Shown here in pieces: positions 1 through 47,549 of a stretch of 55,688 nucleotides of DNA (positions are counted from its first letter, which is position 1; every line of letters starts with the position of its first letter). Position numbers and translations under genes: made by a program. The notes under the pieces are model-generated. The model was not told the DNA's origin. It made no database searches and worked only from the letters and a program-made list of their open reading frames with translations. Source of the stretch: Girardia tigrina (Eukaryota); NCBI GenBank assembly GCA_001938485.1, contig MQRK01242333.1, forward strand, positions 1 through 55,688, in the 5' to 3' direction.

Positions 1-42
1 TCGGCAAGCTACCATATAGTGTACTTGCGTAGTGTAATTTGT

Positions 43-83
43 GACCTGATGATGGGATTTTTATTATCTCGAAACGCGTCGTC
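43..83 (+). ncRNA. Minimal type-I hammerhead ribozyme motif (Penelope-type)
   Basis: gac-CTGATGA-t-gggat(ttttatt)atctc-GAAA-cgcg-TC|gtc. Intact core, 5-bp stem II, palindromic ACGCGT helix III, GUC cleavage triplet, 3-bp stem I gac/gtc. Confidence 0.8.
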
Positions 84-92
84 TTGTTTTTA

Positions 93-568
93 TCCCTAAT
101 ATATATATATATATAATTTTCCAGATTGAATTGAAATTTAATCAAAATGAAATTTAAAGTTCAAGCCAGAGGCGCGTCGTATGTCGTTCTTTAAAAAATA
201 ATTACATCGAAGGAGACTGTCAAATAATTAATATATGTCTAAATTTTAGTTCGTTTGTTTGGTGGTTTGTCGGTCAAGCTCAAAGTTCACTATGATCAAA
301 ATGTCGAGTGGCGGAGGAACCAGAGGAACGTAACGACATGGTCAATCTGGATAATCTGCATCAAGACGACTCTATCGGTGCAGCGTCTTGGCCGAAAGAC
401 CCCGGGTAGCCGACAAAATAAAACCGAAAACCATTCTCGTTGAACGATTGTTAAATCAAAACCGATTCCAAAACAATAAATTATTATATTTACGATTTAA
501 AAATTAAAGCAAAAACTTTCAAGGACGAAAATTTAGCTGCCCGTCATACATAACGCGTATTTTGCTAG
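93..568 (+). mobile_element. Non-autonomous Helitron-like element
   Basis: 3' hairpin cccgtcatacataacgcg followed by tattttgCTAG|t (565-568), related to the 3' ends at 14865 and 26960. The 5' end a|TC plus (TA)n at 93 is tentative. Confidence 0.55.
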
Positions 569-876: not shown

Positions 877-1320
877 ACAATCTTTGATCGCGTCTTTTGT
901 TGTGGTTTCATTTCAATAAATTCTCCTTTGACAATTCCAATTAACAAAGATAAGTCTGACGAGAATTTGAATTTGCCAGTTATTGAACTATTTTTAAAAT
1001 CATCAACGATCAATCTCCCGGTCAAAGAACCTTGTCCAATTACACAGAAATGGTTTATGGTTGACATTAAAAAACTACCAGAGTATTAATTGAATTTAAA
1101 TGTCTATCGCCATTTACTGGTCACCGTTGTCATCTTGGTACACCATCAGAAAACTAGAAACGACATGATCGGTTATATTGTCGGTTATAATAAGGAAATC
1201 GAGAATCTAATGAACCTATTCAAGTTTCCAGTATTGGAGAAAGGTCAGACAGACAAATTTCTGACAAACATTATTTCTTTTGTGAAATCATTGTACACGA
1301 CAAAGTTACTTGTAATTTAA
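877..1320 (+). pseudogene. CLIC (chloride intracellular channel, GST-fold) pseudogene, N-terminal part
   Basis: The frame from 877 reads ...PVIELFLKSSTINLPVKEPCPITQKWFM VDIKKLPEY*LNLNVYRHLL..., matching the CLIC N-terminal pattern (P-x-I/V-ELF-x-K...CPxxQxxFM). In-frame TAA at 1087-1089, no ATG, no introns. Confidence 0.75.
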
Positions 1321-1486
1321 AAAAAATTTATTATGTATAAAATCAAAATCAAAAACAGACTCACCGTGCGAAGAGTCGATTATCGGTAAATCTTCACTTT
1401 TATCTTTTCTATGTAATTTTAATTTAAAGACATATGCACTGACATTACCTTTAAAAAATACAACTAAAACTTTATACAAAGCAGTC

Positions 1487-2454
1487 ATGAAAAAACTAAA
1501 TGTTCCTCACTCAGTAGATATTTTAATCAAAATGGGTCATAAAATCATAATTAAATCTAATGCTCTTCTATCAAATTATTTTACAACAGGTTTAAAAACT
1601 ATACAAGTTTCGATTAAATTTCGCGGAGGCGCACCAACTAAACCTGGACAACCAGATAACATACAAGCAAATACACATGCTCCTTGTGTTAAATGTTTCC
1701 TTGACACAAATGGCTCAATCACAACTTGGCTAGCAATAAATAAAAATTGGTCAAATGCTACAGGCCACACATCACAAAAATTACAACAAGCTTATGGTTT
1801 ACTATCTTTACTACCATCAGAATATTGCACAAAAATAACGAATATTCCAGATATCCTAACACAGGAAAATGCTTATGATGAATTAACTAAGGCCGTACTA
1901 AACTTGACTGATCCATCACAATATGACTTAATATCAAAATATTTTAAGGCAAATATGTTACGAAACCATACTCCAACGGAACATTTAATAAAGCTAGAAC
2001 AGACTTGTACTCACTAAACCCAGCTTTAACACAAAACGATGATCTTTTGAGACAATTATTTATACAAAGTCTGCCATCTCAATTACAAGTTTTTTTAGCA
2101 GTCGTACCTACTACAGTTCCATTAGATGATCTTGCTGCAATTGTTGACCGATCTTTTCAAATCTTCAAACAAAATCAAACAACACCAGCAATTACTGCAA
2201 ATATTAATACATCTCAATCAGAAATAGATCTTTTAAAACAAACAACAAAACTATTACAAGAATCCGTGGCGAATCTTACAAATAGCATCAATCAATTGAC
2301 GATAAGACAATCTAGAAGTCCAAGTAGATCAAATTACAGGACCAGATCCTCATCAAGAAAACCAATAACTTGCTATTACCACTACAAATTCAAAACTAAC
2401 ACAAGATCAGGCAACTTTGGTTGTCGATATTTTGAAAAAAATCTTTTCAAATAA
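1487..2454 (+). mobile_element. gag: Gypsy-type LTR retrotransposon gag remnant (two ORFs, one frameshift near 2005)
   Basis: Motifs AYDELTKAVL, TPTEHL, DDLLRQLFIQSLPSQLQVFLA, LDDLAAIVD, an RS-rich linker SRSPSRS and a C-terminal CYYHYKF...C knuckle are typical of invertebrate Gypsy gag. No pol follows. Confidence 0.8.
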
Positions 2455-7429: not shown

Positions 7430-8190
7430 AATTAATATGAGCAAGTTATTGAATAATAACGGTTACTGTAAGTCCATCATAGACAGACTCACTCGTGAGA
7501 CTGTAGATAAAATAATCGAAAAAGAAAAAATCAAAAGTGAACAAATTAATAGTTTAAACATTGAAAACTGCTTTACCCTGTGTATACTCTAAGCTTATCT
7601 TACTCCGAGGGTTTTAAACACCTCAATAATTCGATCTTGAAATCAACAAATAACATTTTAAATTTAAAAATTATTTCTCAATCATTTAAAGTTGAGAATA
7701 TGTTTTGCAATAAATCACATACTCCTTTAGGATTGTGTTCGGACATTGTTTATCNNNNNNNNNNNNNNNNNNNNNNNNNNNNNNNNNNNNNNNNNNNNNN
7801 NNNNNNNNNNNNNNNNNNNNTCCAAGAACACAGTCAAAAAGGGGGAAAGAGTAATATTGCTGAGCATAAAAAACGTGTAAATGTAATATGAGCATAAATG
7901 ATTTGAAGATTTTTTGCAAGCATTTTAAGAATTATTGCGAGATAATGTCATGTGAAGCATTGTTGATAAGATCATGTGATCCTAAAATCAATGTTCAAAC
8001 AGCACTCTCAACTAATTTGTTAAGAGTTTTCGATTAGACTTACGTAAGTGATTACATAATCACTCATTTCTTATATAAAAGCAATAAAAAAGAACAAAAT
8101 CAGTGATCTGATGATGACGATTAAACTGTCGAAATATATTATCCTAAAATATATTTTTAAATGGCGTTTATTTGTTTATAATAAAAAATT
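7430..8190 (+). mobile_element. Penelope-like element 3' remnant (RT C-terminus/linker, GIY-YIG endonuclease, pLTR tail)
   Basis: LNNNGYCKSIID; LSYSEG; KSHTPLGLCSDIVY-[gap]-QEH...SNIAEH; EALLIRSCDPKINVQ; followed by a hammerhead motif and an aaatggcg tail. Confidence 0.85.
8105..8143 (+). ncRNA. Minimal type-I hammerhead ribozyme motif in Penelope tail
   Basis: gat-CTGATGA-t-gacg(attaaac)tgtc-GAAA-tata-TT|atc. Intact core, 4-bp stem II, palindromic ATATAT helix III, stem I gat/atc. Confidence 0.8.
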
Positions 8191-8371
8191 GACATCTTTT
8201 TTCAAGTTTAATTAATGTGAAGTTTGTTAAAAATTCATGTAGTCAAATATTTATTTATAAAATTCTAATTTTATATCACAATTTCAAAATATAACAAAAG
8301 TAATTTAAAACTATAAAAAAAATAAGTGATTAAAAAATCTAAAAAAAATCAAAAATTTTTTATTTGAATTT

Positions 8372-9450: not shown

Positions 9451-10481
9451 AATAAACAAAAAGGATAAAACCTAGAGCAAAAGATATTTAATTAATTTAA
9501 ATCGATTGTAACATTATTGTCATTGATAAAATGATTGAATTGTATCGAATAGCGAAAAACCTAGAGAGCCCACAAGACATTCAACAGTCAGTCCGACAAC
9601 AAAATCCCAGTGTCGCTCAATAGATCACGGAACTCACACCTGCAACAATCGCGAGAAATCAGCTCGATATTCAACAATTTCGACTAAAATTCTTTAATAA
9701 TCGATCGATTCATTTTCAAGTGTTTATCGAACAATACTTCAAATTATTTTTCAATTTTTCAAAGGAAACCATAACACAAATCGATTATTTTAAACAAATT
9801 CAAAATTTTATATTAAATTTCCATTTTTTTATAAAAATTAAAATGCTATACAAAAATCCATTTTTTTATTACAATTTCACAAAAAAATTTAAACATTATA
9901 CTGAAGTTTTGATTAAAATATTATTTAAAAACTTAATTTAGAAACAAAAAATACAAAAAACAATCTCCAACTAAAGTCATCCGAAAAAGAGTTTTACGAT
10001 AATTCTAAACATTATTCCTCATATATCTAAGATCTGAACTGATTTTAATTACTTTCTTATCGATCATATAGTCAAGACCTTGAATCTTAAAATTTTTTTT
10101 GAATACTTTTTCGAAATTCCATATCAAAATTTTTGTATTCATTTGTATGTTTCCAATTTTCATCAAATTTTGAGGGAGTGACAAGCATATAGAATTAAAG
10201 ATTTCAAATCAAGTACTACAATTTAAGGACAAAGGAAGTATTATTTGAATATTCAAGTTGGATAATTTCAATTCACTCTTTCTGACACGACAATGATTCA
10301 GCAGGTTACCCAGTCATTTCTAGCTAGGAATAAAACTCACTGGTACTGGCGTTGTAGCGCGCGTGCTGCCTTGGACATCTAAGGGTACTTACCTCTTATT
10401 GCTCCATTTCACTTAGCTAAAGGCTATTTACTCCTCTAAGAAGTCAGCATTTGTGATTTAACACGAATGTACTATATTACA

Positions 10482-10587
10482 GGTGTCGTTCGTAAATGGA
10501 ATTAACCAGAGAAATCACTCCACCAACTAAGAAAGACCATGCCAAGCACCCACTCAATCAAGAAAGAGCTATCAATCTGTCAAACCT
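10482..10587 (-). pseudogene. Isolated, diverged 18S rRNA fragment
   Basis: Reverse complement reads ttgacagattgatagctctttcttgatt...gcatggtc tttcttagttggtggagtgatttctctggttaattcc...acgaacgacacc, a universally conserved eukaryotic SSU segment, here with substitutions. Confidence 0.9.
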
Positions 10588-11279: not shown

Positions 11280-11632
11280 TAACAAAAGCGCCATTTATAG
11301 GTATCAGATTTATTTTTAACATGTTTCGCCTTCACATGCATGTTCAGTCTTCTCTTTTAGGTTTGTAAAGCGATCTTCTTTTATACTTGCTTGGTTGTTA
11401 TGCAAGTGCTATTACGTAACCCGGGGATTAATTTATTATTGTCAATTAAAATATATTGATGCGATTGGATGTTTCACTCGCATGTTCAAGCATGGTACGA
11501 AATGCTTTATTAGAAGTGCTTCTGTGATGATCCTTTCACTACAATTATCAAAATTCGAGTTCAATATTTTGAATTCACTTTCCCAATTAACAGTTTCCCG
11601 ATCTTTACATCTCGTCAGATGTTCCAGAATTT
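11280..11632 (-). mobile_element. Penelope-like element 3' remnant (GIY-YIG C-terminus plus tail)
   Basis: Minus frame ILEHLTRCKDRETVNWESEFKILNSNFDNCSERIITEALLIKHFVPCLN. The tail keeps GAAA-catg-TT (half hammerhead) and aaatggcg. Confidence 0.8.
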
Positions 11633-17080: not shown

Positions 17081-18352
17081 TTAGGTTGAACCTAAAGTCT
17101 TTTCGTATTTTCTACGTTTTTTTGTTCAATTGTTTCTTATTACCAAATAAAGATATTTTATATACATGTGTTATATGTTTTTAAAGCTCTTAAACTGCTT
17201 TATCACAATATATATTAAAACTTCTAATTAGTCCTTAATATAATTATTATGGTCTTTTAGAAAAATCATAGAAAATCTTGAAATTCGTGTTCTTTTACGC
17301 CATTACTGGAAACATGACTTAAAGGCAACTGCAGCAACAAAAAAATATGCGAAGTTAAAGGCGATAATGTGGTCTCAAATAGTACTGCACAAAATTGGTT
17401 CAAAAGGTTCAACGAATGCGACATTGACCTCAGAGACAATGCACGTTCAGGCCGACCTATCACCGTACATTCCGGAGCAATTCGTGAAGCCGTCGAGACA
17501 AATCCGTCAATAAGTACTCGCAGATTGTCGGCCGAACTCGATATTCCTCAAACATCCATTGTACGACACCTTCACACTCTTGGTAAGGTCAATAGACGAT
17601 GTCGAGAAGTGCCTCATGAATTGACACAAATTCAAGACGAAAAGCGTTTCGAAACTTGTCAAAAATTACTTACCGTTTCATCCGTCGAATTGTAACTTGC
17701 GATGAAAAGTGGGTTTAATTCAGTAATCCAGAAAAACAAAATCAATGGTTGGACCCTGGACAAATGGCGAAACCGGTAGCAAAAAGAGATCGTTTCTCAA
17801 GAAAGGCACTTTTGTGTATTTGGTGGAATTTCGAAGGTGTGATTCACTTCGAGCTGGTTCCAAATGGTCGTACCATCGACGCTGACGTTTACTGCGCCCC
17901 ACTTGATCGAATGTATGCGGCACTTTGCGAGAAATACCCCACTTTGATCAATCAAAAGTGAGTTCTTCTACAACAGGACAATGCAAAACCGCACACCGCC
18001 AAACAAACAATGGAAAAAAAATTAAAAGTCTCGACGCCTTTGAACTTCTTCCACACACAGCGTATAGTCCGGATCTTGCACCACCCGANNNNNNNNNNNN
18101 NNNNNNNNNNNNNNNNNNNNNNNNNNNNNNNNNNNNNNNNNNNNNNNNNNNNNNNNNNNNNNNNNNNNNNNNNNNNNNNNNNNNNNNNNNNNNNNNNNNN
18201 NNNNNNNNNNNNNNNNNNNNNNNNNNCCATAGATGGGTTCAAGCTATAGATTCAAATGGCCTTTACTTTGAAACTTAAATGTTTTTTATTTGTTGTAAAA
18301 TTATGTTTAAATTTTTAATAAAAGATACGAAAAGACTTTTGGTTCACCCTAA
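17081..18352 (+). mobile_element. Full-length mariner transposon with disrupted transposase
   Basis: ~28-bp TIRs ttaggttgaacctaaagtcttttcgtat / atacgaaaagacttttggttcaccctaa with TA TSD. Motifs WFKRF, RSGRP, VPHEL, IVTCDEKWV, QDNAKPH, YSPDLAP. Frameshifts, stops and an N gap. Confidence 0.97.
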
Positions 18353-30719: not shown

Positions 30720-32870
30720 GAAAAACTCTATTTGGATCCAGCTTTGAGGTACAAGGTTAAAGGATTTTATGGTCCATTAATGTCATTAAATAAAAATATT
30801 CCAATAAATTTATTGTTTTTATGTCTGCATTGAACAAAGTTTGTGATATGAGTCGCATTACATCTTGCATTTGTTGTGTTGAGCTTCTTTCCAATTTCTT
30901 GTAGTATAAACACATGCTCACATAATCTTGAAATTGCAAAGTATCAATAAATTGATATGTTACATCGTCTTGTACTTCATTGTTTTTTCTTCGGAAAGTG
31001 TTTACAGCAAATTAGGTTAAAATTTCTGTCCAACTTAAATACTGATGTATAAAACTAAGTTAACAGGTCAACCATAATTTGGCTACTAATCAGCCTATTT
31101 TTTACTAAAAAAATAACTAAAAGAAAAGTAATAAGAAGAAATTGTATTACATATAAAAAACTAAATTGTATATATATATAAAGAAAATAAAGGCCTGTTT
31201 GAGTAGAATCTTCCTTCAGTAATGATTCCAAATCTTCATCTTCGAATCTTTTTGGTTTACCGGAACGCTCTTTGTCACTTACGTCGAAATCTTCACTTTT
31301 GAAACGTTTATACCAGTTCTCGCAAGTCTGTTGAGTTGGTGCATGTTGGCCATAAGTTTCTTCAAGAAGCCGAAAACTGTCTGCAGCTTTTTTCTTTTGA
31401 TTAAAGCAAAACAGTAGTGCTTCTCGCAAATGCTGTTTTGTTGGTATGTAAGTTGTCATGCTAAAACTTGATTAAAAATATGTTTATGACGCATTTAATG
31501 TCAATGACCTACTTAATTTTAAAGCCTCGATTTCAGCACTTTAAAAATCTGTACGTACGACTGTAAAATAATGCTTATTACAAAGGTTACACCATCTCTT
31601 AGAAAATCCAAAAAACTAAGTTGTACACCTAATATATGTGTGATAAAGGAAAAGAATTTAATGATGATGCAAATGGTGAAGCAACAGGAAATGAATCCAT
31701 TTATGAAGACCCAAAAGAAATGTATTCGGAAAAATTGCTAATTTTGATAAAATGAAAAAAAAGTAGGAAAAGAAAAGAATTTTGGTTATTTCACCTGATG
31801 GAAATTGAATGTTTTCTATGTTAGTTATCCTTAAGGAGCAATCTTGAAACCTTTTTGAACATGTAAATATAATATAAATCATTATAATATCAAATATTCA
31901 CAATAAATGCTCTAAATCAGGAAATATGAAAAGATCATTAGAAATCATGATTATCCAGTATTTATATTTAAATGTGCAGGAAAATTCTTTGCTTCCCCTT
32001 GACTCTTGAAATTGTTGCAAAGACACTGATATTATCAATTATGTTGTCTCAGAACAAACAAGATAAAATAATGATGGTACCACCCAAAGTTGTTGAATTT
32101 CTTAAACTCATGGGAAATGTTTATTTGCATTTACAAGGCATTCCATCAATCCTTTTTTTTCATGCCTTTCTTAATTTTATTAATATTATATCTCAAAGAA
32201 TAAAACTTTTTAAATTAACTTACTCAATACATAAATTGATTTTTATCACCAAAATATAAAAAGCGTGATAAAGTTCTTTAAGTGTTCTAGAGGATATTTT
32301 GAAAGACCCCCAAAATATATTAATGCCAATCAGTTATATTTATTACCTTCAAATATTTTTTTCATAAAAATTTCTTTATTATGTCACTGGTGGAAAAATG
32401 TGTTTTTTAATCATTTTTATACGAAATACAATAAAAATTGAAATAACATAGAAGCTTTGAGTGTATACATATTTTCAAATACTTACACATTTTGTCTTTG
32501 TACATATTAGCAAAAGTAATATTAACATTGTTAGATGCTGTTGGTACATCTTTGGAATAAATAGAAACTGATATTTTTTTAAATTCATACATATCACATT
32601 CTTACTATAAAGGTTGATAAATATACAATCTTTCTTATCAAAATTTTAATATAACTTACCACATTTTCGAAACTAAAAATTTTCATTAATATGAGCAACT
32701 GTTTATCTAATTATGTGATTTATTTTGTTAATATTTTGAAAAACTGGTAGTACAATTTCCATCACTACCAATCTTCCGACTTGTAGAATGTCGCACTCGG
32801 TGTTCGAATGAGCATACCAATTTGGACATAAGTTGGACATATTTTTTTAAATTCATACATATCACCATTA
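30720..32870 (-). pseudogene. Decayed multi-exon gene of unknown product, interrupted by a mariner
   Basis: Short GT-AG intron-like segments on the minus strand (gtaagt donors near 32659 and 32484; tatag, ccaccag, ctctag acceptors) separate protein-like reading frames with scattered stops. Confidence 0.35.
31196..31632 (-). mobile_element. 5' portion of a Mos1-like mariner (3'-truncated)
   Basis: TA-ttaggtgtacaacttag TIR. ORF MTTYIPTKQHLREALLFCFNQKKKAADSFRLL...WYKRFKSEDFDVSDKERSGKPKRFEDEDLESLLKEDSTQT, after which homology stops. Confidence 0.93.
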
Positions 32871-40955: not shown

Positions 40956-42745
40956 AGTTACGTTTACGGTATTTCCAACCAATTATANNNNATTCTCTCA
41001 CCTTCGCCATTGCGCGACTGTCACGCCCAGCCCGCTCTACAACAAAACATATTTGAGAAAAAAATCTTTTAAAACTAATGGAAGAATAGATTTTGTTAAT
41101 ATCTCCAATTCCAATATAAATATATTAATTCAAATAATTTTTTTAATAACTTTATTTTAAAATAAATGACATAAAAAACGTTTTTTGAAACATTTTTTTC
41201 TACTGTTTTTAGCATTTTTAGTGGGTAAAATTGATATTTTAATNNNNNNNNNNNNNNNNNNNNNNNNNNNNNNNNNNNNNNNNNNNNNNNNNNNNNNNNN
41301 NNNNNNNNNNNNNNNNNNNNNNNNNNNNNNNNNNNNNNNNNNNNNNNNNNNNNNNNNNNNNNNNNNNNNNNNNNNNNNNNNNNNNNNNNNNNNNNNNNNN
41401 NNNNNNNNNNNNNNNNNNNNNNNNNNNNNNNNNNNNNNNNNNNNNNNNNNNNNNNNNNNNNNNNNNNNNNNNNNNNNNNNNNNNNNNNNNNNNNNNNNNN
41501 NNNNNNNNNNNNNNNNNNNNNNNNNNNNNNNNNNNNNNNNNTTTTTTTCGAAAATTCAAAAAAAAACAAATTAGAGGAAAAATGTTTAAATTATTAATAA
41601 ATTTATTTTATGGGGAAATTTATTTCCAATAAACAGAAATGGTTCGTGAATTTTATTATTAATAAAAAATTATATTTTAGAATTAATATTAATTTAAAGA
41701 AAAATTTTAGTTAATTTGTAATATGTTTTAATAGAATAAAAACAATATTAGAAAAAATAAATATAATTAATTAATTATATAAAATATAAATATAATATCA
41801 AATTTTTAGTAAGAAATTTTATCTCATTTTAAAAATCTTCTAAATAAATTTATTTATTAATTATTTAACTTTTTTACTTATTAATTTTTCTTACTTCTTT
41901 CATTTTTCAAACTGAAAGATTAACAATCTTACTTAAGGACTCTTAATTTAACATAGAGATTCTGTCATGTAACCCCTCATAAACCTTACACAAATGGTAC
42001 CATTTTTATACTATCGATCAAGTGACATTGTTTAATAATAATTTATGAAAGGTTTTTAGAAAACACGATATATATAATTTCTGAATCATATTAGATCTAA
42101 TTATCAAAAATAAATAAATCAAATTGACAGAGTTTTCATATTTAAAAGTGATATTCTACTTATTAAAAGTGAAAAGGAAGCTACACAATATAGTTTTTAT
42201 CTTTAGTAATTGTTACACTTCCTTAATGTAATATAAATATTAAATAAATGAATAATTAATTTAGTAGAAAAAAGTTATATTTTTATAACAATGTAACACA
42301 GAGAAACGAAAATATTTTAACGATAAACTAAAATTCGGACATTGGGAGCAAAGCTCTGATTTACAGTTTACTTTGATTCTCAAAATTCTAGACTTTTTAG
42401 TCTATTCGAGAGATCTTTAAAGGTCGAAATAAAAAGGATTTTCAATCTGGTATTAGTTAACTTCACCTTCTTTTTATTTATCTGTAAATTGAAAAATAAC
42501 AGATTCCTTTAATAAAAAGAATAATATGAACTTCATAATTTCTTAAGTCGTGGTTACTAGTGGGCTAGTCGTTTGAGAAAGTATTAAACAAAAGGTCTTA
42601 ACGTGTAAAACTTCTTTGAGTTTTCGTGTTAATATGATTTTATTTTGTCTTGTAATTGATCTATTGCAAAAGGGTCGTTGAAGGATGTCTTTTTGTCTCT
42701 CTAAGCTGAATTAGGAACAAATATTATATTATTGATCTGGATATA

Positions 42746-43309
42746 CGAGGGGTGTCCCAAAAGTTTGCGGACTAATAAGTAACAACAATATAAGCAATAT
42801 AAGAAAAGTAACAACCTGACTTTTAGAAACGCCTGTAATAGCTGCTATCTCATGGATAGTGAGGAATCTGATACCAAGAATGACTGCCTCGATAACTTTC
42901 ACATTTTCTTGACATCCGGACGTTGTTGGTCGCCCACAGTGTTCATCATCCTCCAATGATTGACACCCTGCCTGGAATCGTTGCACCCACTTAAATTCTT
43001 CCCATAGCGGCATCACCAAAGAATCGGTGTAAACGGTGCACAATATCTGCAGTCTTCCTTCCCGAGGAAATAGATGATTGCTCGTTGAGATTTCACTGCC
43101 TCTTCCATACTAACTACAAGAGAGAAATATGACAAATTAATACATTCGTATGTCACACACATGCCGACGGGCATCCAATGTGAGTTCACCTACATTACAA
43201 TTGGTTGGTTCCCCTCTCATGTCATTGTACACACACCGCGCGTTACAGTCACGTACACACGTGACCACGCGATATTCTCTCAGTCCGTGAACTTTTGGGA
43301 CACCCCTCG
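42746..43309 (-). mobile_element. Internally deleted mariner with both TIRs
   Basis: TA-cgaggggtgtcccaaaagtttgcggact / agtccgtgaacttttgggacacccctcg-TA. Only the N-terminal transposase is retained (QRAIIYFL, WVQRFQAG, EDDEHCGRPTTS). Confidence 0.95.
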
Positions 43310-45033: not shown

Positions 45034-46602
45034 TCTTATTGTAAATATCTGACTTTTTAAATCACATCTATATAAAGAATTTTTAGCTTTTAAATCTTTC
45101 AAAATATGGAACGATTAAGACGAACAATTATTTAACCTTCTTTTTATTCTTCTTATTATTTTTTATTAATTATTAATATTATTAGTTTTTAAATTTTAAA
45201 ATAATCATGAATTATAAGTTTAATGATGGCGTTTGATTTGTTTATATTAATTTCATTAATTGATTTTATTTTTTAATTGTTTTATATGAAAAAAGTACTT
45301 TTAATACATAATAATTCATACGAATGTGTTTTACAGTGAAAATAAATTGAAAAATAAGTACATCAATTGTAATCTTTTTATTTGAAAAAATCTATCTCTC
45401 ACTGTTTATTTTATTTAAAAAAATATTTTTTATAAGAAAGACGGTTATTATTCTGTATTTTGAAATACAATTCCCATTTCAGGAGAAAAACTTTATTATA
45501 AATAATTCTTTTAAATATAAAATTACTTTTAATAATGAAATATGACCCTTGAAATATGATTTATTAATATAATTTATTTAAGGCCAAAAAATAAAAATAA
45601 ATTTTATTTTTTTAGTTTTTTAGACTTTATTTTAATTTAAAATCAATTTTATGAATATTTTGGTTTTTAAAGAACATATTTATCAAAAATATGAGTAAAA
45701 AAGAGGAAAATTTACACCTTAACATTTATAATTGTTAATTGACATTAAAAGTTTTTCTCTAAAATAAAAGATAAAATAGAAGTAAAAAAATGATTTTTTA
45801 ATATGATTACAGTTACAATCAACTTCATAAATCGTTAATATATCATTATTATAATATCATTACTATTAATAATAATAATTTTCAATTAAAAACTTAATTT
45901 CCTTTCCCATTTAAATGAGATTTTATTTTTTTTTATTTTTATTAAGGAAATATTGTACTCCACAAAAAACAGGAAATAATTAATTTAATAATTAAACTCT
46001 GATATAACGGCCTTCTGCCATCCGTAGATTTCTTTTCATTTCTTCCGTCTACTTCTAATAATCTTCTTTCGCTTCCTTGGCTGAATCGTTTTGATTAATC
46101 CATTTTGTGTTACAAAATTTATTATTTAGGTTTTCTAAGAAAAGTAGTTTATAAAAATTTAAAAGCCCAATCGAAAAACGTAATAAAAAATAATTGTTAT
46201 TTATTTGCTTTTTATAAATTATAATAAAAAAATTATTATTATTACTCGTTATCATTATTTAAGTGAAAGATTAATTTTTACATACAGGAGCATTATAAAA
46301 TATATTTTTGTAGATTTTTATAAATAAACTTTTCATAAATGAATATTTGTTTGACTAAATAATATATTTTTTGCAATTACTTAAAAATTGTTTTTAATCA
46401 AAAAAAATTAAAAATCTTTATTAACAATGTTTTTAATTTATTTTATTAATATATTTTTATTTTTAAAGAAAAATTATTACATTTATTGTTCAATGTAGAC
46501 GTGCATTTTTGTATTTATTATTATATTTTTATTGATGAAGTGAAATCTAAATGATAATTTTCTATGAATAACAAAACTCATCGATTTAAAAATATATTTA
46601 TT

Positions 46603-46643
46603 GAAAATATATTTCAACGGATCAACCGGCATCTTCAGGTCCC
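46603..46643 (-). ncRNA. Hammerhead ribozyme motif with stem mismatches
   Basis: Reverse complement ggac-CTGAAGA-t-gccgg(ttgat)ccgtt-GAAA-tata-TT|ttc. Core intact; one mismatch each in stems I and II. Confidence 0.65.
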
Positions 46644-47549
46644 CGAATAATAATTAATTATAATATATATAATATATACCGATATATAAATGCAAAAATG
46701 ATGATTATGTAATCGATTGTATGAAATCATGCTAATCAAAAATTCTCAATAAGCTGGTTGAGACTGCCAATTGAACATTGATTTTAGGGCACCGTTACCT
46801 AATTAGCAATGCTTCACACGACACTCTCTCCCAATAACTGTCAAAATGCTTACACAGAATTTTGAAATTATCAAAATTAACATCACATTTACATTTCTTC
46901 CTATTTTACTCTTATGTATTTAATTTTTTACTAAATTATTAATATATAATAATATTTTATAATATAATTTTATATTTCTGAAGATAGTCTGATTTATTTT
47001 CTACATATTGGATTCACAACTTTTAAAAAATCTTTTTTATATTTTCATCTAATAGATCAATAATAATTTCTTTAAAGTCAATTATTTTATATGCTTTAAT
47101 AATGAGCTAATAATGATTTAAAATAGCAGAACTTGTTTTTATAATTTTTTTATAAATTAACAATGGGCTTTTATCACTTTATTAATTTATATAAATTTTA
47201 TTTATTACATTTAGTTTTCATTTATCTACAATTCCCATCGAGGTTTATTCCATAAAGTTTTCGTTTTTATTTACTTTTAAAACTTAATCTTTTTAGTAGA
47301 CATTTTTATTTAGAATTTTTTCATTGTTACTTTTTTACTTCTTCAATATAATAAATTATTATTTTATACTTGAACTTTATAATACTTTTTTTAATACTTT
47401 ATGTGAAATTATAACCGATTTTTTTAAAAATCAATTATTTGGTTGTTTAAGGTGCAGAATAGACGCTTCAAAGACATGCATTAAAAATCAGCAATCAATA
47501 CCGATTAATTTGGTCAAAACCTTTTTAGTCGGGCCGAATAGTTTGAGAT

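What the first reader, a model, noticed from the sequence alone, without database searches (positions are those of the whole stretch)
43..83. Intact minimal hammerhead ribozyme with GUC triplet and palindromic helix III
Seen: all core nucleotides (CUGAUGA, GAAA, UC), a 5-bp stem II, a 3-bp stem I and a self-complementary ACGCGU in place of a stable helix III. Known: Penelope-like retroelements carry such minimal type-I hammerheads, proposed to cleave as dimers through the palindrome. Inference: this is the best candidate here for an active ribozyme, from a different family than the 8105 motif. Its parent element would lie left of the window.
Basis: partly seen in the sequence, partly recalled or inferred. 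Interest (0 to 1): 0.7.

Follow-up and report, generated by a model that had tools for sequence, protein, structure and literature searches.

The report
Ribozyme-ended repeat targeted by a LINE
This is a textbook-type minimal hammerhead, a predicted self-cutting RNA motif, at the end of a 652-base repeat with over 2,000 copies that likely borrows Penelope transposon enzymes to spread, and a second jumping gene inserts again and again at one spot inside that repeat.

Summary
The motif is there as described and is not chance: 1,284 exact genomic copies, control 0. It fits the minimal hammerheads of Penelope-like elements (PLEs), which this scan has already noted on other DNA of this genome.

The parent is not an RT/GIY-YIG element. 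It is a ~652-bp unit with one hammerhead per junction and PLE-type insertion marks: 5' truncation, inverted copies, partial tandems, and two 3' ends that run into (TA)n. The unit is predicted to fold strongly on the ribozyme strand only (z -3 to -10). It is best read as a non-autonomous PLE, also called a non-LTR retrozyme.

A 174-codon frame opens inside the catalytic core, but it has dN/dS near 1 and no credible homologue. Activity of this copy is doubtful: a blocking fold is favoured, and element ends do not cluster at the cut site.

The extra: an R2/NeSL-like LINE sits antisense at unit position 192 in 24 of 30 loci examined, three with both junctions. I did not find a retrozyme described as such a target.

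The parts
1..98 (+). 3' end of one copy of the ~652-bp non-autonomous PLE / retrozyme unit (last 45 bases of the unit, hammerhead, 18 bases past the cut); cut off by the contig start
   Evidence: 3 mismatches over 1-108 to each of the two junctions of the tandem copy L061, spacing 652; subfamily tag 1-21 has 482 exact copies
20..36 (+). Predicted hairpin upstream of the ribozyme (20-25 with 31-36)
   Evidence: Pair 25:31 is U-A in 57 and C-G in 34 of 101 copies, 10 discordant; a neighbouring pair changes on both sides between old and young subfamilies
43..83 (+). Minimal type-I hammerhead motif
   Evidence: Sequence; 1,284 exact copies of 46-80; stems paired in 129-136 of 136 sampled copies
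46..53 (+). Core CUGAUGA plus the extra U between positions 9 and 10.1
54..70 (+). Stem II (5 bp, G55-U69 wobble) and loop 2
   Evidence: 55:69 is G-U in 118, A-U in 14, G-C in 1, unpaired in 3 of 136 copies; A-U dominates in runs X6 and X7
74..79 (+). Palindrome ACGCGU, predicted intermolecular helix III
   Evidence: Self-duplex -7.5 kcal/mol; other families carry ACAUGU, AUUAAU, AUAUAU, ACUAGU at this place
78..80 (+). GUC triplet; predicted cut after C80
   Evidence: cleavage not tested
49..54 (+). Two in-frame AUGs inside the core, which open the 174-175-codon frame in full units; in this copy the frame stops at 97-99 because the element ends
99..115 (+). (AT)n microsatellite at the short 3' end: likely the insertion target
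   Evidence: 62 of 105 surveyed ends run into (TA)n at one of two points

Best explanation
The motif is the minimal hammerhead at the junction of a ~652-bp repeat that has no reverse transcriptase of its own and is likely copied by a Penelope-like element's RT/GIY-YIG protein. Shown: the unit, its copy number, partial head-to-tail tandems, 5' truncations, inverted 5' copies, and two 3' ends about 18 and 42-49 bases past the predicted cut, both joined to (TA)n. Inferred by analogy with the anole PLE PAc (PMC11167929): the PLE protein nicks AT-rich DNA and starts reverse transcription internally at two sites downstream of the ribozyme, on an RNA that is uncut there or re-ligated as a circle. The ribozyme is predicted to be folded off in the monomer and to cut only when two copies pair through ACGCGU or the PLE protein refolds it, which would release unit-length, strongly self-paired RNA. 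The window copy is one such 3' end and is most likely a passive passenger. Separately, an RLE-type LINE uses one site of the unit as its target (shown at the DNA level).
For: Copy number. Hammerhead-to-hammerhead spacing 650-652 in 5 of 6 gap-free full units, 588 in one; two short 92- and 108-nt repeats also seen. 138 of 214 3' ends fall in two clusters; 62 of 105 ends run into (TA)n, 24 continue into the next unit. Inverted and truncated pieces. The genome holds coding PLE families with RT and GIY-YIG; one shares the ACGCGT palindrome and two-end (TA)n junctions, about 2,000 motif copies. Across families stems I, II and the palindrome change together while the core and extra U stay. Sense-strand circular fold z -3.3 to -9.5 in 5 units, antisense +0.4 to -4.6, four control stretches -1.2 to +2.1. 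An older subfamily at 70-80% identity keeps the same layout. Present in contigs of runs labelled as several organisms.
Against: No autonomous partner found: the unit shares nothing beyond short hammerhead-core matches with the 20 extended GIY-YIG loci tested, and only 150 of 2,832 GIY-YIG candidates were scored. No sign that the cut defines template ends: 1 of 259 5' ends at unit position 36, 0 of 214 3' ends at 33-38. Within this family the ribozyme stems show almost no two-sided changes. Selection on the long-range fold is weak: pair-keeping versus pair-breaking transitions 13:5, p 0.048 in one of five frequency bins, the others not significant. Fold z-scores rest on 12 shuffles each. Expression, cleavage and circles are not shown: all runs laid were contigs, most only guessed to be RNA.
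Confidence: 0.8

Rival explanations
1. The motif is simply the pseudo-LTR hammerhead of an autonomous RT/GIY-YIG PLE whose full-length copy is collapsed or missing in this fragmented assembly.
For: The assembly has 255,254 contigs and most copies sit at contig ends. The AUG lies in the core as in PAc (PMC11167929). Only the best candidates are scored in genome searches.
Against: Six gap-free hammerhead-to-hammerhead units of 588-652 nt hold no RT or endonuclease. Apart from the two tail ends and the LINE site, 3' ends do not cluster, and no 5' end position exceeds 5 of 259. The ORF has no PLE homologue.
Confidence: 0.1
2. The ribozyme is a relic. It is kept as a protein-binding or RT-initiation signal of the pseudo-LTR, and cleavage plays no part in copying. 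This is compatible with the unit identity above.
For: No end clustering at the cut. Blocking fold favoured. PAc catalytic mutants still insert in vitro, and no reads ended at its cut site (PMC11167929). 8 of 9 Xenopus retrozyme dimers did not cleave (bioRxiv 10.64898/2026.07.22.740005).
Against: Every family keeps the catalytic core, a palindrome and a cleavable position 17: in the ACGCGT coding family it is A, U or C in 38 of 38, never G. That pattern follows the chemistry of cleavage.
Confidence: 0.3
3. The unit is a small protein-coding element: the 174-codon frame that starts in the ribozyme core is translated and kept open.
For: A frame this long arises in 1 of 20,000 base shuffles and 3 of 5,000 dinucleotide shuffles. 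No stop among 42 variants shared by 8 or more copies or 21 old-versus-young differences, against 19 of 381 singletons. No ORF indel is shared by 4 or more copies.
Against: dN/dS about 1.1-1.5; 13 synonymous to 29 nonsynonymous among common variants; 3 to 18 between subfamilies. 5 stops among 90 variants in 4-7 copies. Many copies were picked by tblastn with this protein, which favours intact frames. No Pfam, Atlas or credible protein homologue; the one close hit, P0002, is the same repeat at 89%.
Confidence: 0.12
4. The LINE does not target the unit but carries a piece of it at its 3' end, or LINE-unit composites were copied together.
For: Most LINE-bearing contigs start inside the LINE, so only 3' junctions are seen in 21 of the 24 unit-associated loci.
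Against: Three loci (L327, L334, L343) have unit sequence on both sides, with 3-7 bases lost and three different LINE 5' truncations. The flanking units range from 74% to 98% identity to the reference, so both subfamilies are hit.
Confidence: 0.07

Closest known systems
Minimal hammerheads (min-HHR) of metazoan Penelope-like elements (Cervera and De la Pena 2014, PMC4209133; parts 1-2 of 4 read)
   Same: Type-I core, extra base between 9 and 10.1, G10.1-C11.1, short helix I, palindrome in place of helix III, thousands of mostly single copies.
   Different: Helix II is 5 bp (6-8 in their examples). It sits in a 652-bp unit without RT/GIY-YIG. The family is very uniform (1,284 identical 35-mers), like D. 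virilis rather than the variable families they describe.
Metazoan non-LTR retrozymes (Cervera and De la Pena 2020, PMC7229834, parts 2-3 of 6 read; Li et al. bioRxiv 10.64898/2026.07.22.740005, parts 1-3 of 5 read)
   Same: One type-I hammerhead per head-to-tail unit, low GC, predicted strong self-pairing, no RT, co-occurring with PLEs. Length lies within the 51-972 bp range of the preprint.
   Different: Minimal rather than canonical hammerhead; longer than the 150-450 bp of the 2020 paper; mostly dispersed truncated copies and dimers, no long arrays seen in this assembly; a 174-codon open frame; circles not shown.
Non-autonomous PLEs such as MRC1 of Chlamydomonas (Craig et al. 2021, PMC8557442; parts 1-3 of 10 and passages read)
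   Same: Pseudo-LTRs, head-to-tail insertions, 5' truncation, inverted copies, optional 3' tail, microsatellite targets.
   Different: Those resemble their autonomous partner at the 3' end and mostly lack hammerheads. Here a hammerhead is present and no partner with shared sequence was found. The tail is about 24 nt rather than 30-40.
PAc, the Poseidon PLE of Anolis (Frangieh et al. 2024, PMC11167929; parts 1-2 of 4 read)
   Same: ORF start inside the hammerhead; two 3' ends downstream of the cut; AT-rich targets; no ends at the cut site.
   Different: PAc encodes RT and endonuclease; its initiation sites lie 111-118 nt into the ORF, here about 50 and 75-80.
Target-specific RLE non-LTR elements of the NeSL/R2 group (Kojima and Jurka 2015, PMC4640811, introduction and passages; Kojima et al. 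2016, PMC5035012, passages) - for the nested LINE
   Same: C-terminal CCHC knuckle and restriction-like endonuclease region, one fixed site in a multicopy sequence, variable 5' truncation, small target loss. Both papers list transposons among known target types.
   Different: The NeSL-clade targets named in the passages read are rRNA, tRNA, U2, spliced-leader genes and microsatellites; a hammerhead repeat is not among them.

Membership tests
PLE-type minimal hammerhead | Core CUGANGA...GAAA...UH with G10.1-C11.1 and helices I and II | tested here: met
PLE-type minimal hammerhead | [quoted passage not shown] | tested here: met
   U53; 136 of 136 copies
PLE-type minimal hammerhead | Palindromic 15.2-16.2/loop 3 in place of a stable helix III | tested here: met
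   ACGCGU; 101 of 118 copies palindromic
PLE-type minimal hammerhead | Self-cleavage as a dimer or with protein help | not testable with these tools
   No assay; only contig data
Autonomous EN+ Penelope-like element | Single ORF with RT and GIY-YIG between pseudo-LTRs | tested here: not met
   Six-frame translation of natural units; no Pfam hit
Non-autonomous PLE | Partial tandems, 5' truncation, inverted 5' copies, optional tail, (TA)n targets | tested here: met
Non-autonomous PLE | 3' similarity to an autonomous partner family | tested here: inconclusive
   Only core and palindrome shared with one coding family; 150 of 2,832 GIY-YIG candidates scored
Non-LTR retrozyme | Type-I hammerhead in each head-to-tail unit | tested here: met
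   (dimers and one longer partial array, L078)
Non-LTR retrozyme | Highly self-paired RNA | tested here: met
   Predicted only: z -3.3 to -9.5 on the sense strand
Non-LTR retrozyme | No protein coding | tested here: inconclusive
   174-codon frame, dN/dS about 1, no homologue
Non-LTR retrozyme | Canonical hammerhead with loop 1-loop 2 contact (2020 definition; the 2026 preprint also admits minimal motifs) | tested here: not met
   3-bp helix I, no helix III
Non-LTR retrozyme | Expressed as unit-length linear and circular RNA | not testable with these tools
   No raw reads offered
Target-specific RLE LINE (nested element) | C-terminal CCHC plus restriction-like endonuclease | tested here: met
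   Motifs read in L018/L335; all 5 PDB hits are R2 proteins, weak, best E 0.027
Target-specific RLE LINE (nested element) | Fixed insertion site in a multicopy sequence | tested here: met
   24 of 30 loci; 21 of 27 without the three that suggested the query
Target-specific RLE LINE (nested element) | RT phylogeny placing it in the NeSL clade | not tested
   Its RT was not recovered. Homologues P0006-P0008 carry RT and P0007 also a Ulp1 protease, a NeSL/Utopia trait (PMC4640811)

The most novel reading that the evidence does not exclude
A three-tier parasite chain: Penelope elements mobilise a 652-nt, strongly self-paired, hammerhead-processed circular RNA that keeps a translated open frame starting inside its own catalytic core, and a dedicated site-specific RLE LINE uses that retrozyme as its safe-haven target. 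The LINE targeting alone is about 90% likely from the junctions; circles and a translated, maintained frame are the uncertain parts.
Probability: 0.15. Interest if true: 0.72.

Novelty: new variant of a known kind. Interest (0 to 1): 0.42.

Why it matters
The hammerhead alone is ordinary for this genome and for PLEs. Two things add value. First, the host unit is short, young and uniform, and carries the full PLE insertion signature without a coding partner. That makes it a compact substrate for an open question: does ribozyme cleavage matter for PLE or retrozyme copying, and do PLE proteins mobilise retrozymes in trans? Second, an RLE LINE has a fixed target inside this repeat, and sister LINE families appear to have other repeat targets. 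That extends the target range of site-specific RLE elements and offers close relatives with different specificities for comparison. My searches found no paper on a retrozyme as a LINE target. Repbase and the supplements of PMC4640811 (S6 Fig, NeSL targets) were not seen, so either family may already be catalogued.

Tried and rejected
Rfam: no hammerhead hit in the window or in three full units.

ORF identity: Pfam, ESM Atlas and the word-indexed search gave nothing beyond the same repeat. The two extra HMMER hits, P0003 and P0004, are low-complexity repeat translations and were rejected. The 1,000-1,300-residue 'open frames' were runs of N.

Autonomous partner: none found among GIY-YIG loci or other ACGCGT hammerheads.

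Cleavage-defined ends: not found.

The raw pair-keeping trend (34 of 212 singletons versus 25 of 37 common variants) is largely a transition effect. The stratified test is marginal.

One search used a misregistered structure string and is void; one search replaces it. The unit-picking pattern matched nothing, so folding was redone.

Sequencing runs: contigs only. Unique window DNA at 551-1000 had no cover while the repeat did; a part without cover proves nothing, and the organisms may differ.

Earlier-findings look-ups by sequence returned nothing.

Full report
OBSERVATION. There is also an unpaired U53 between positions 9 and 10.1. Bases 46-80 occur 1,284 times exactly in the genome, control 0; a looser pattern gives 2,419, control 3. 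Rfam misses the motif.

IS IT A HAMMERHEAD? In 136 sampled copies each stem pair is kept in 129-136. That sample was partly chosen by exact patterns, so its conservation is inflated. The only common changes are in loop 2 and G55 to A, which turns G-U into A-U; A-U dominates in runs X6 and X7. Two-sided changes within the family's ribozyme stems are nearly absent. The real covariation lies between families of this genome: stems I and II and the palindrome (ACGCGU, ACAUGU, AUUAAU, AUAUAU) differ while core, extra U and complementarity stay, and position 17 is A, U or C in 38 of 38 copies of one family. This matches the minimal hammerheads of Penelope-like elements (PMC4209133).

THE PARENT. The window starts at base 1 of its contig, so I used paralogues. 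Upstream and downstream sequence join into one unit with a hammerhead at each junction. Gap-free spacings are 651, 652, 652, 651, 650 and 588, plus two short repeats of 92 and 108; six further spacings contain N. The window copy differs at 3 of 108 bases from each junction of tandem L061. Copies are 5'-truncated and often carry an inverted piece. Of 105 surveyed ends, 30 stop at the short end and 32 about 24 nt later, both joined to (TA)n; 24 continue into the next unit, 13 are other and 6 are contig ends. The window copy has the short end at 98. These are the PLE marks described in PMC8557442 and explained by two internal RT start sites in PMC11167929. An older subfamily, 70-80% identical, has the same layout (557 motif matches), so the element is long-lived. 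Contigs of runs labelled organisms A, B, C and a leaf-litter metatranscriptome cover the unit; contigs cannot show expression or circles.

NO RT, BUT AN OPEN FRAME. The unit encodes no RT or endonuclease. A 174-175-codon frame begins at the AUGs inside the core, the same position as the PAc ORF start. Such a frame is rare in shuffles (1 of 20,000; 3 of 5,000). It shows no protein-level constraint: dN/dS 1.1-1.5 in 61 copies, 13 synonymous to 29 nonsynonymous among variants in 8 or more of 169 pieces, and 3 to 18 over 129 codons between subfamilies. Stops are absent from those 63 lineage-level changes against 19 of 381 singletons (about p 0.04 by hand), but 5 of 90 mid-frequency variants are stops and the sample favours intact frames. 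No credible homologue exists. I read it as a probable relic, with a small chance that openness is maintained.

RNA STRUCTURE. Five natural units fold as circles with z -3.3 to -9.5 on the ribozyme strand, +0.4 to -4.6 on the other strand, against -1.2 to +2.1 for four control stretches (12 shuffles each). One pair in the hairpin at window 20-36 covaries cleanly (U-A 57, C-G 34, discordant 10). Selection on the long helices is marginal (13:5, p 0.048 in one of five bins).

ACTIVITY. The monomer prefers a fold that pairs the core away (-7.8 versus -2.3 kcal/mol). The palindrome can form a -7.5 kcal/mol duplex between two molecules. No other ACGCGU hammerhead lies in the window; whether one lay 652 nt upstream is unknown. 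Element ends do not mark the cut: 1 of 259 5' ends at unit position 36 and 0 of 214 3' ends at 33-38, while 138 of 214 fall in the two tail clusters. The copied template was therefore uncut or re-ligated at that site, as for PAc. Literature points to low or protein-assisted activity.

LIKELY MOBILISER. The genome holds several coding PLE families (147 GIY-YIG matches among 150 of 2,832 candidates scored; RT and GIY-YIG confirmed). One ends in a hammerhead with the same ACGCGT palindrome and in (TA)n at two points (2,037 pattern matches). It is a candidate only: there is no shared sequence beyond the core.

A LINE THAT TARGETS THE UNIT. Three early loci showed a LINE 3' end abutting the unit; the same junction is a loose end in runs X1 and X5. 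The LINE's 3' tag has 387 exact matches. Of 30 loci fetched, 20 join unit position 191-193 directly, antisense; 4 join diverged unit copies in about the same register; 6 show no unit match. Without the three loci that suggested the query the count is 21 of 27. L327, L334 and L343 have unit sequence on both sides, resuming at 200, 196 and 196, with three different LINE 5' truncations. Targets span both subfamilies (74-98% identity). The ORF end has a CCHC knuckle and an RLE-type region; all five PDB hits are R2 proteins (weak, best E 0.027), and homologues carry RT, one also a Ulp1 protease. The clade was not tested by a tree. The window copy ends before this site and has no LINE. Target-specific LINEs with transposon targets are known in general (PMC4640811, PMC5035012); four searches found none with a retrozyme target.

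VERDICT. The motif is real and of a known kind. Its host is a non-autonomous PLE or non-LTR retrozyme within the published size range, unusual in its minimal ribozyme, open frame and dedicated LINE. Earlier notes of this scan call the genome's hammerheads ordinary PLE ends, and one labels the host a planarian (not tested here). None of the notes shown describes this unit. No supplementary files were read. The Gypsy and Tx1 labels are recalled or taken from earlier notes, not from a family search. Interest 0.42.

Noticed in passing
L369:5714-5830, L370; L373-L377, L379; L349-L368: Sister families of the nested RLE LINE seem to have their own targets. One at about 77% DNA identity joins the same site in a Gypsy-type RT region in 2 of 4 loci (Gypsy label recalled from the motif). 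Another has the same downstream repeat sequence in 6 loci, with the boundary not defined. The P0006-like families end in T-runs at unrelated sites.
   Followed up: partly
window 7437-8219: Broken coding PLE (RT C-terminal part, linker, GIY-YIG) ending in the 8108 hammerhead with an AUAUAU palindrome.
   Followed up: yes
window 46556-46905 (-) and 11475-11630 (-): Two further PLE endonuclease remnants; the first has a degenerate hammerhead at 46638-46612.
   Followed up: partly
L137, L243, L248, L252-L254, L256: A coding PLE family whose hammerhead has the same ACGCGT palindrome (about 2,000 copies), so heterodimers with this unit's ribozyme are possible in principle.
   Followed up: partly
L160, L164, L170: A hammerhead variant with the same GAC/GUC stem I and ACGCGU palindrome but a different stem II and U at position 17, near a short inverted piece of the unit.
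   Followed up: no
L013, L078: Very short head-to-tail repeats of the hammerhead end (92 and 108 nt spacing), which put two ribozymes close enough for a dimer in one transcript.
   Followed up: no
window 10384-10543 (-): Degenerate small-subunit rRNA fragment, below Rfam's threshold (E 0.06).
   Followed up: no
window 1316-2454 (+): Two overlapping frames that look like a broken LTR-retrotransposon gag (recalled resemblance; no Pfam hit).
   Followed up: partly
window 17318-18278, 31055-31471, 42729-43109: Mariner/Tc1-like transposase fragments (recalled resemblance).
   Followed up: no
window 251-300 and 451-550: Short stretches with high cover in all four runs laid; pieces of another repeat family.
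   Followed up: no
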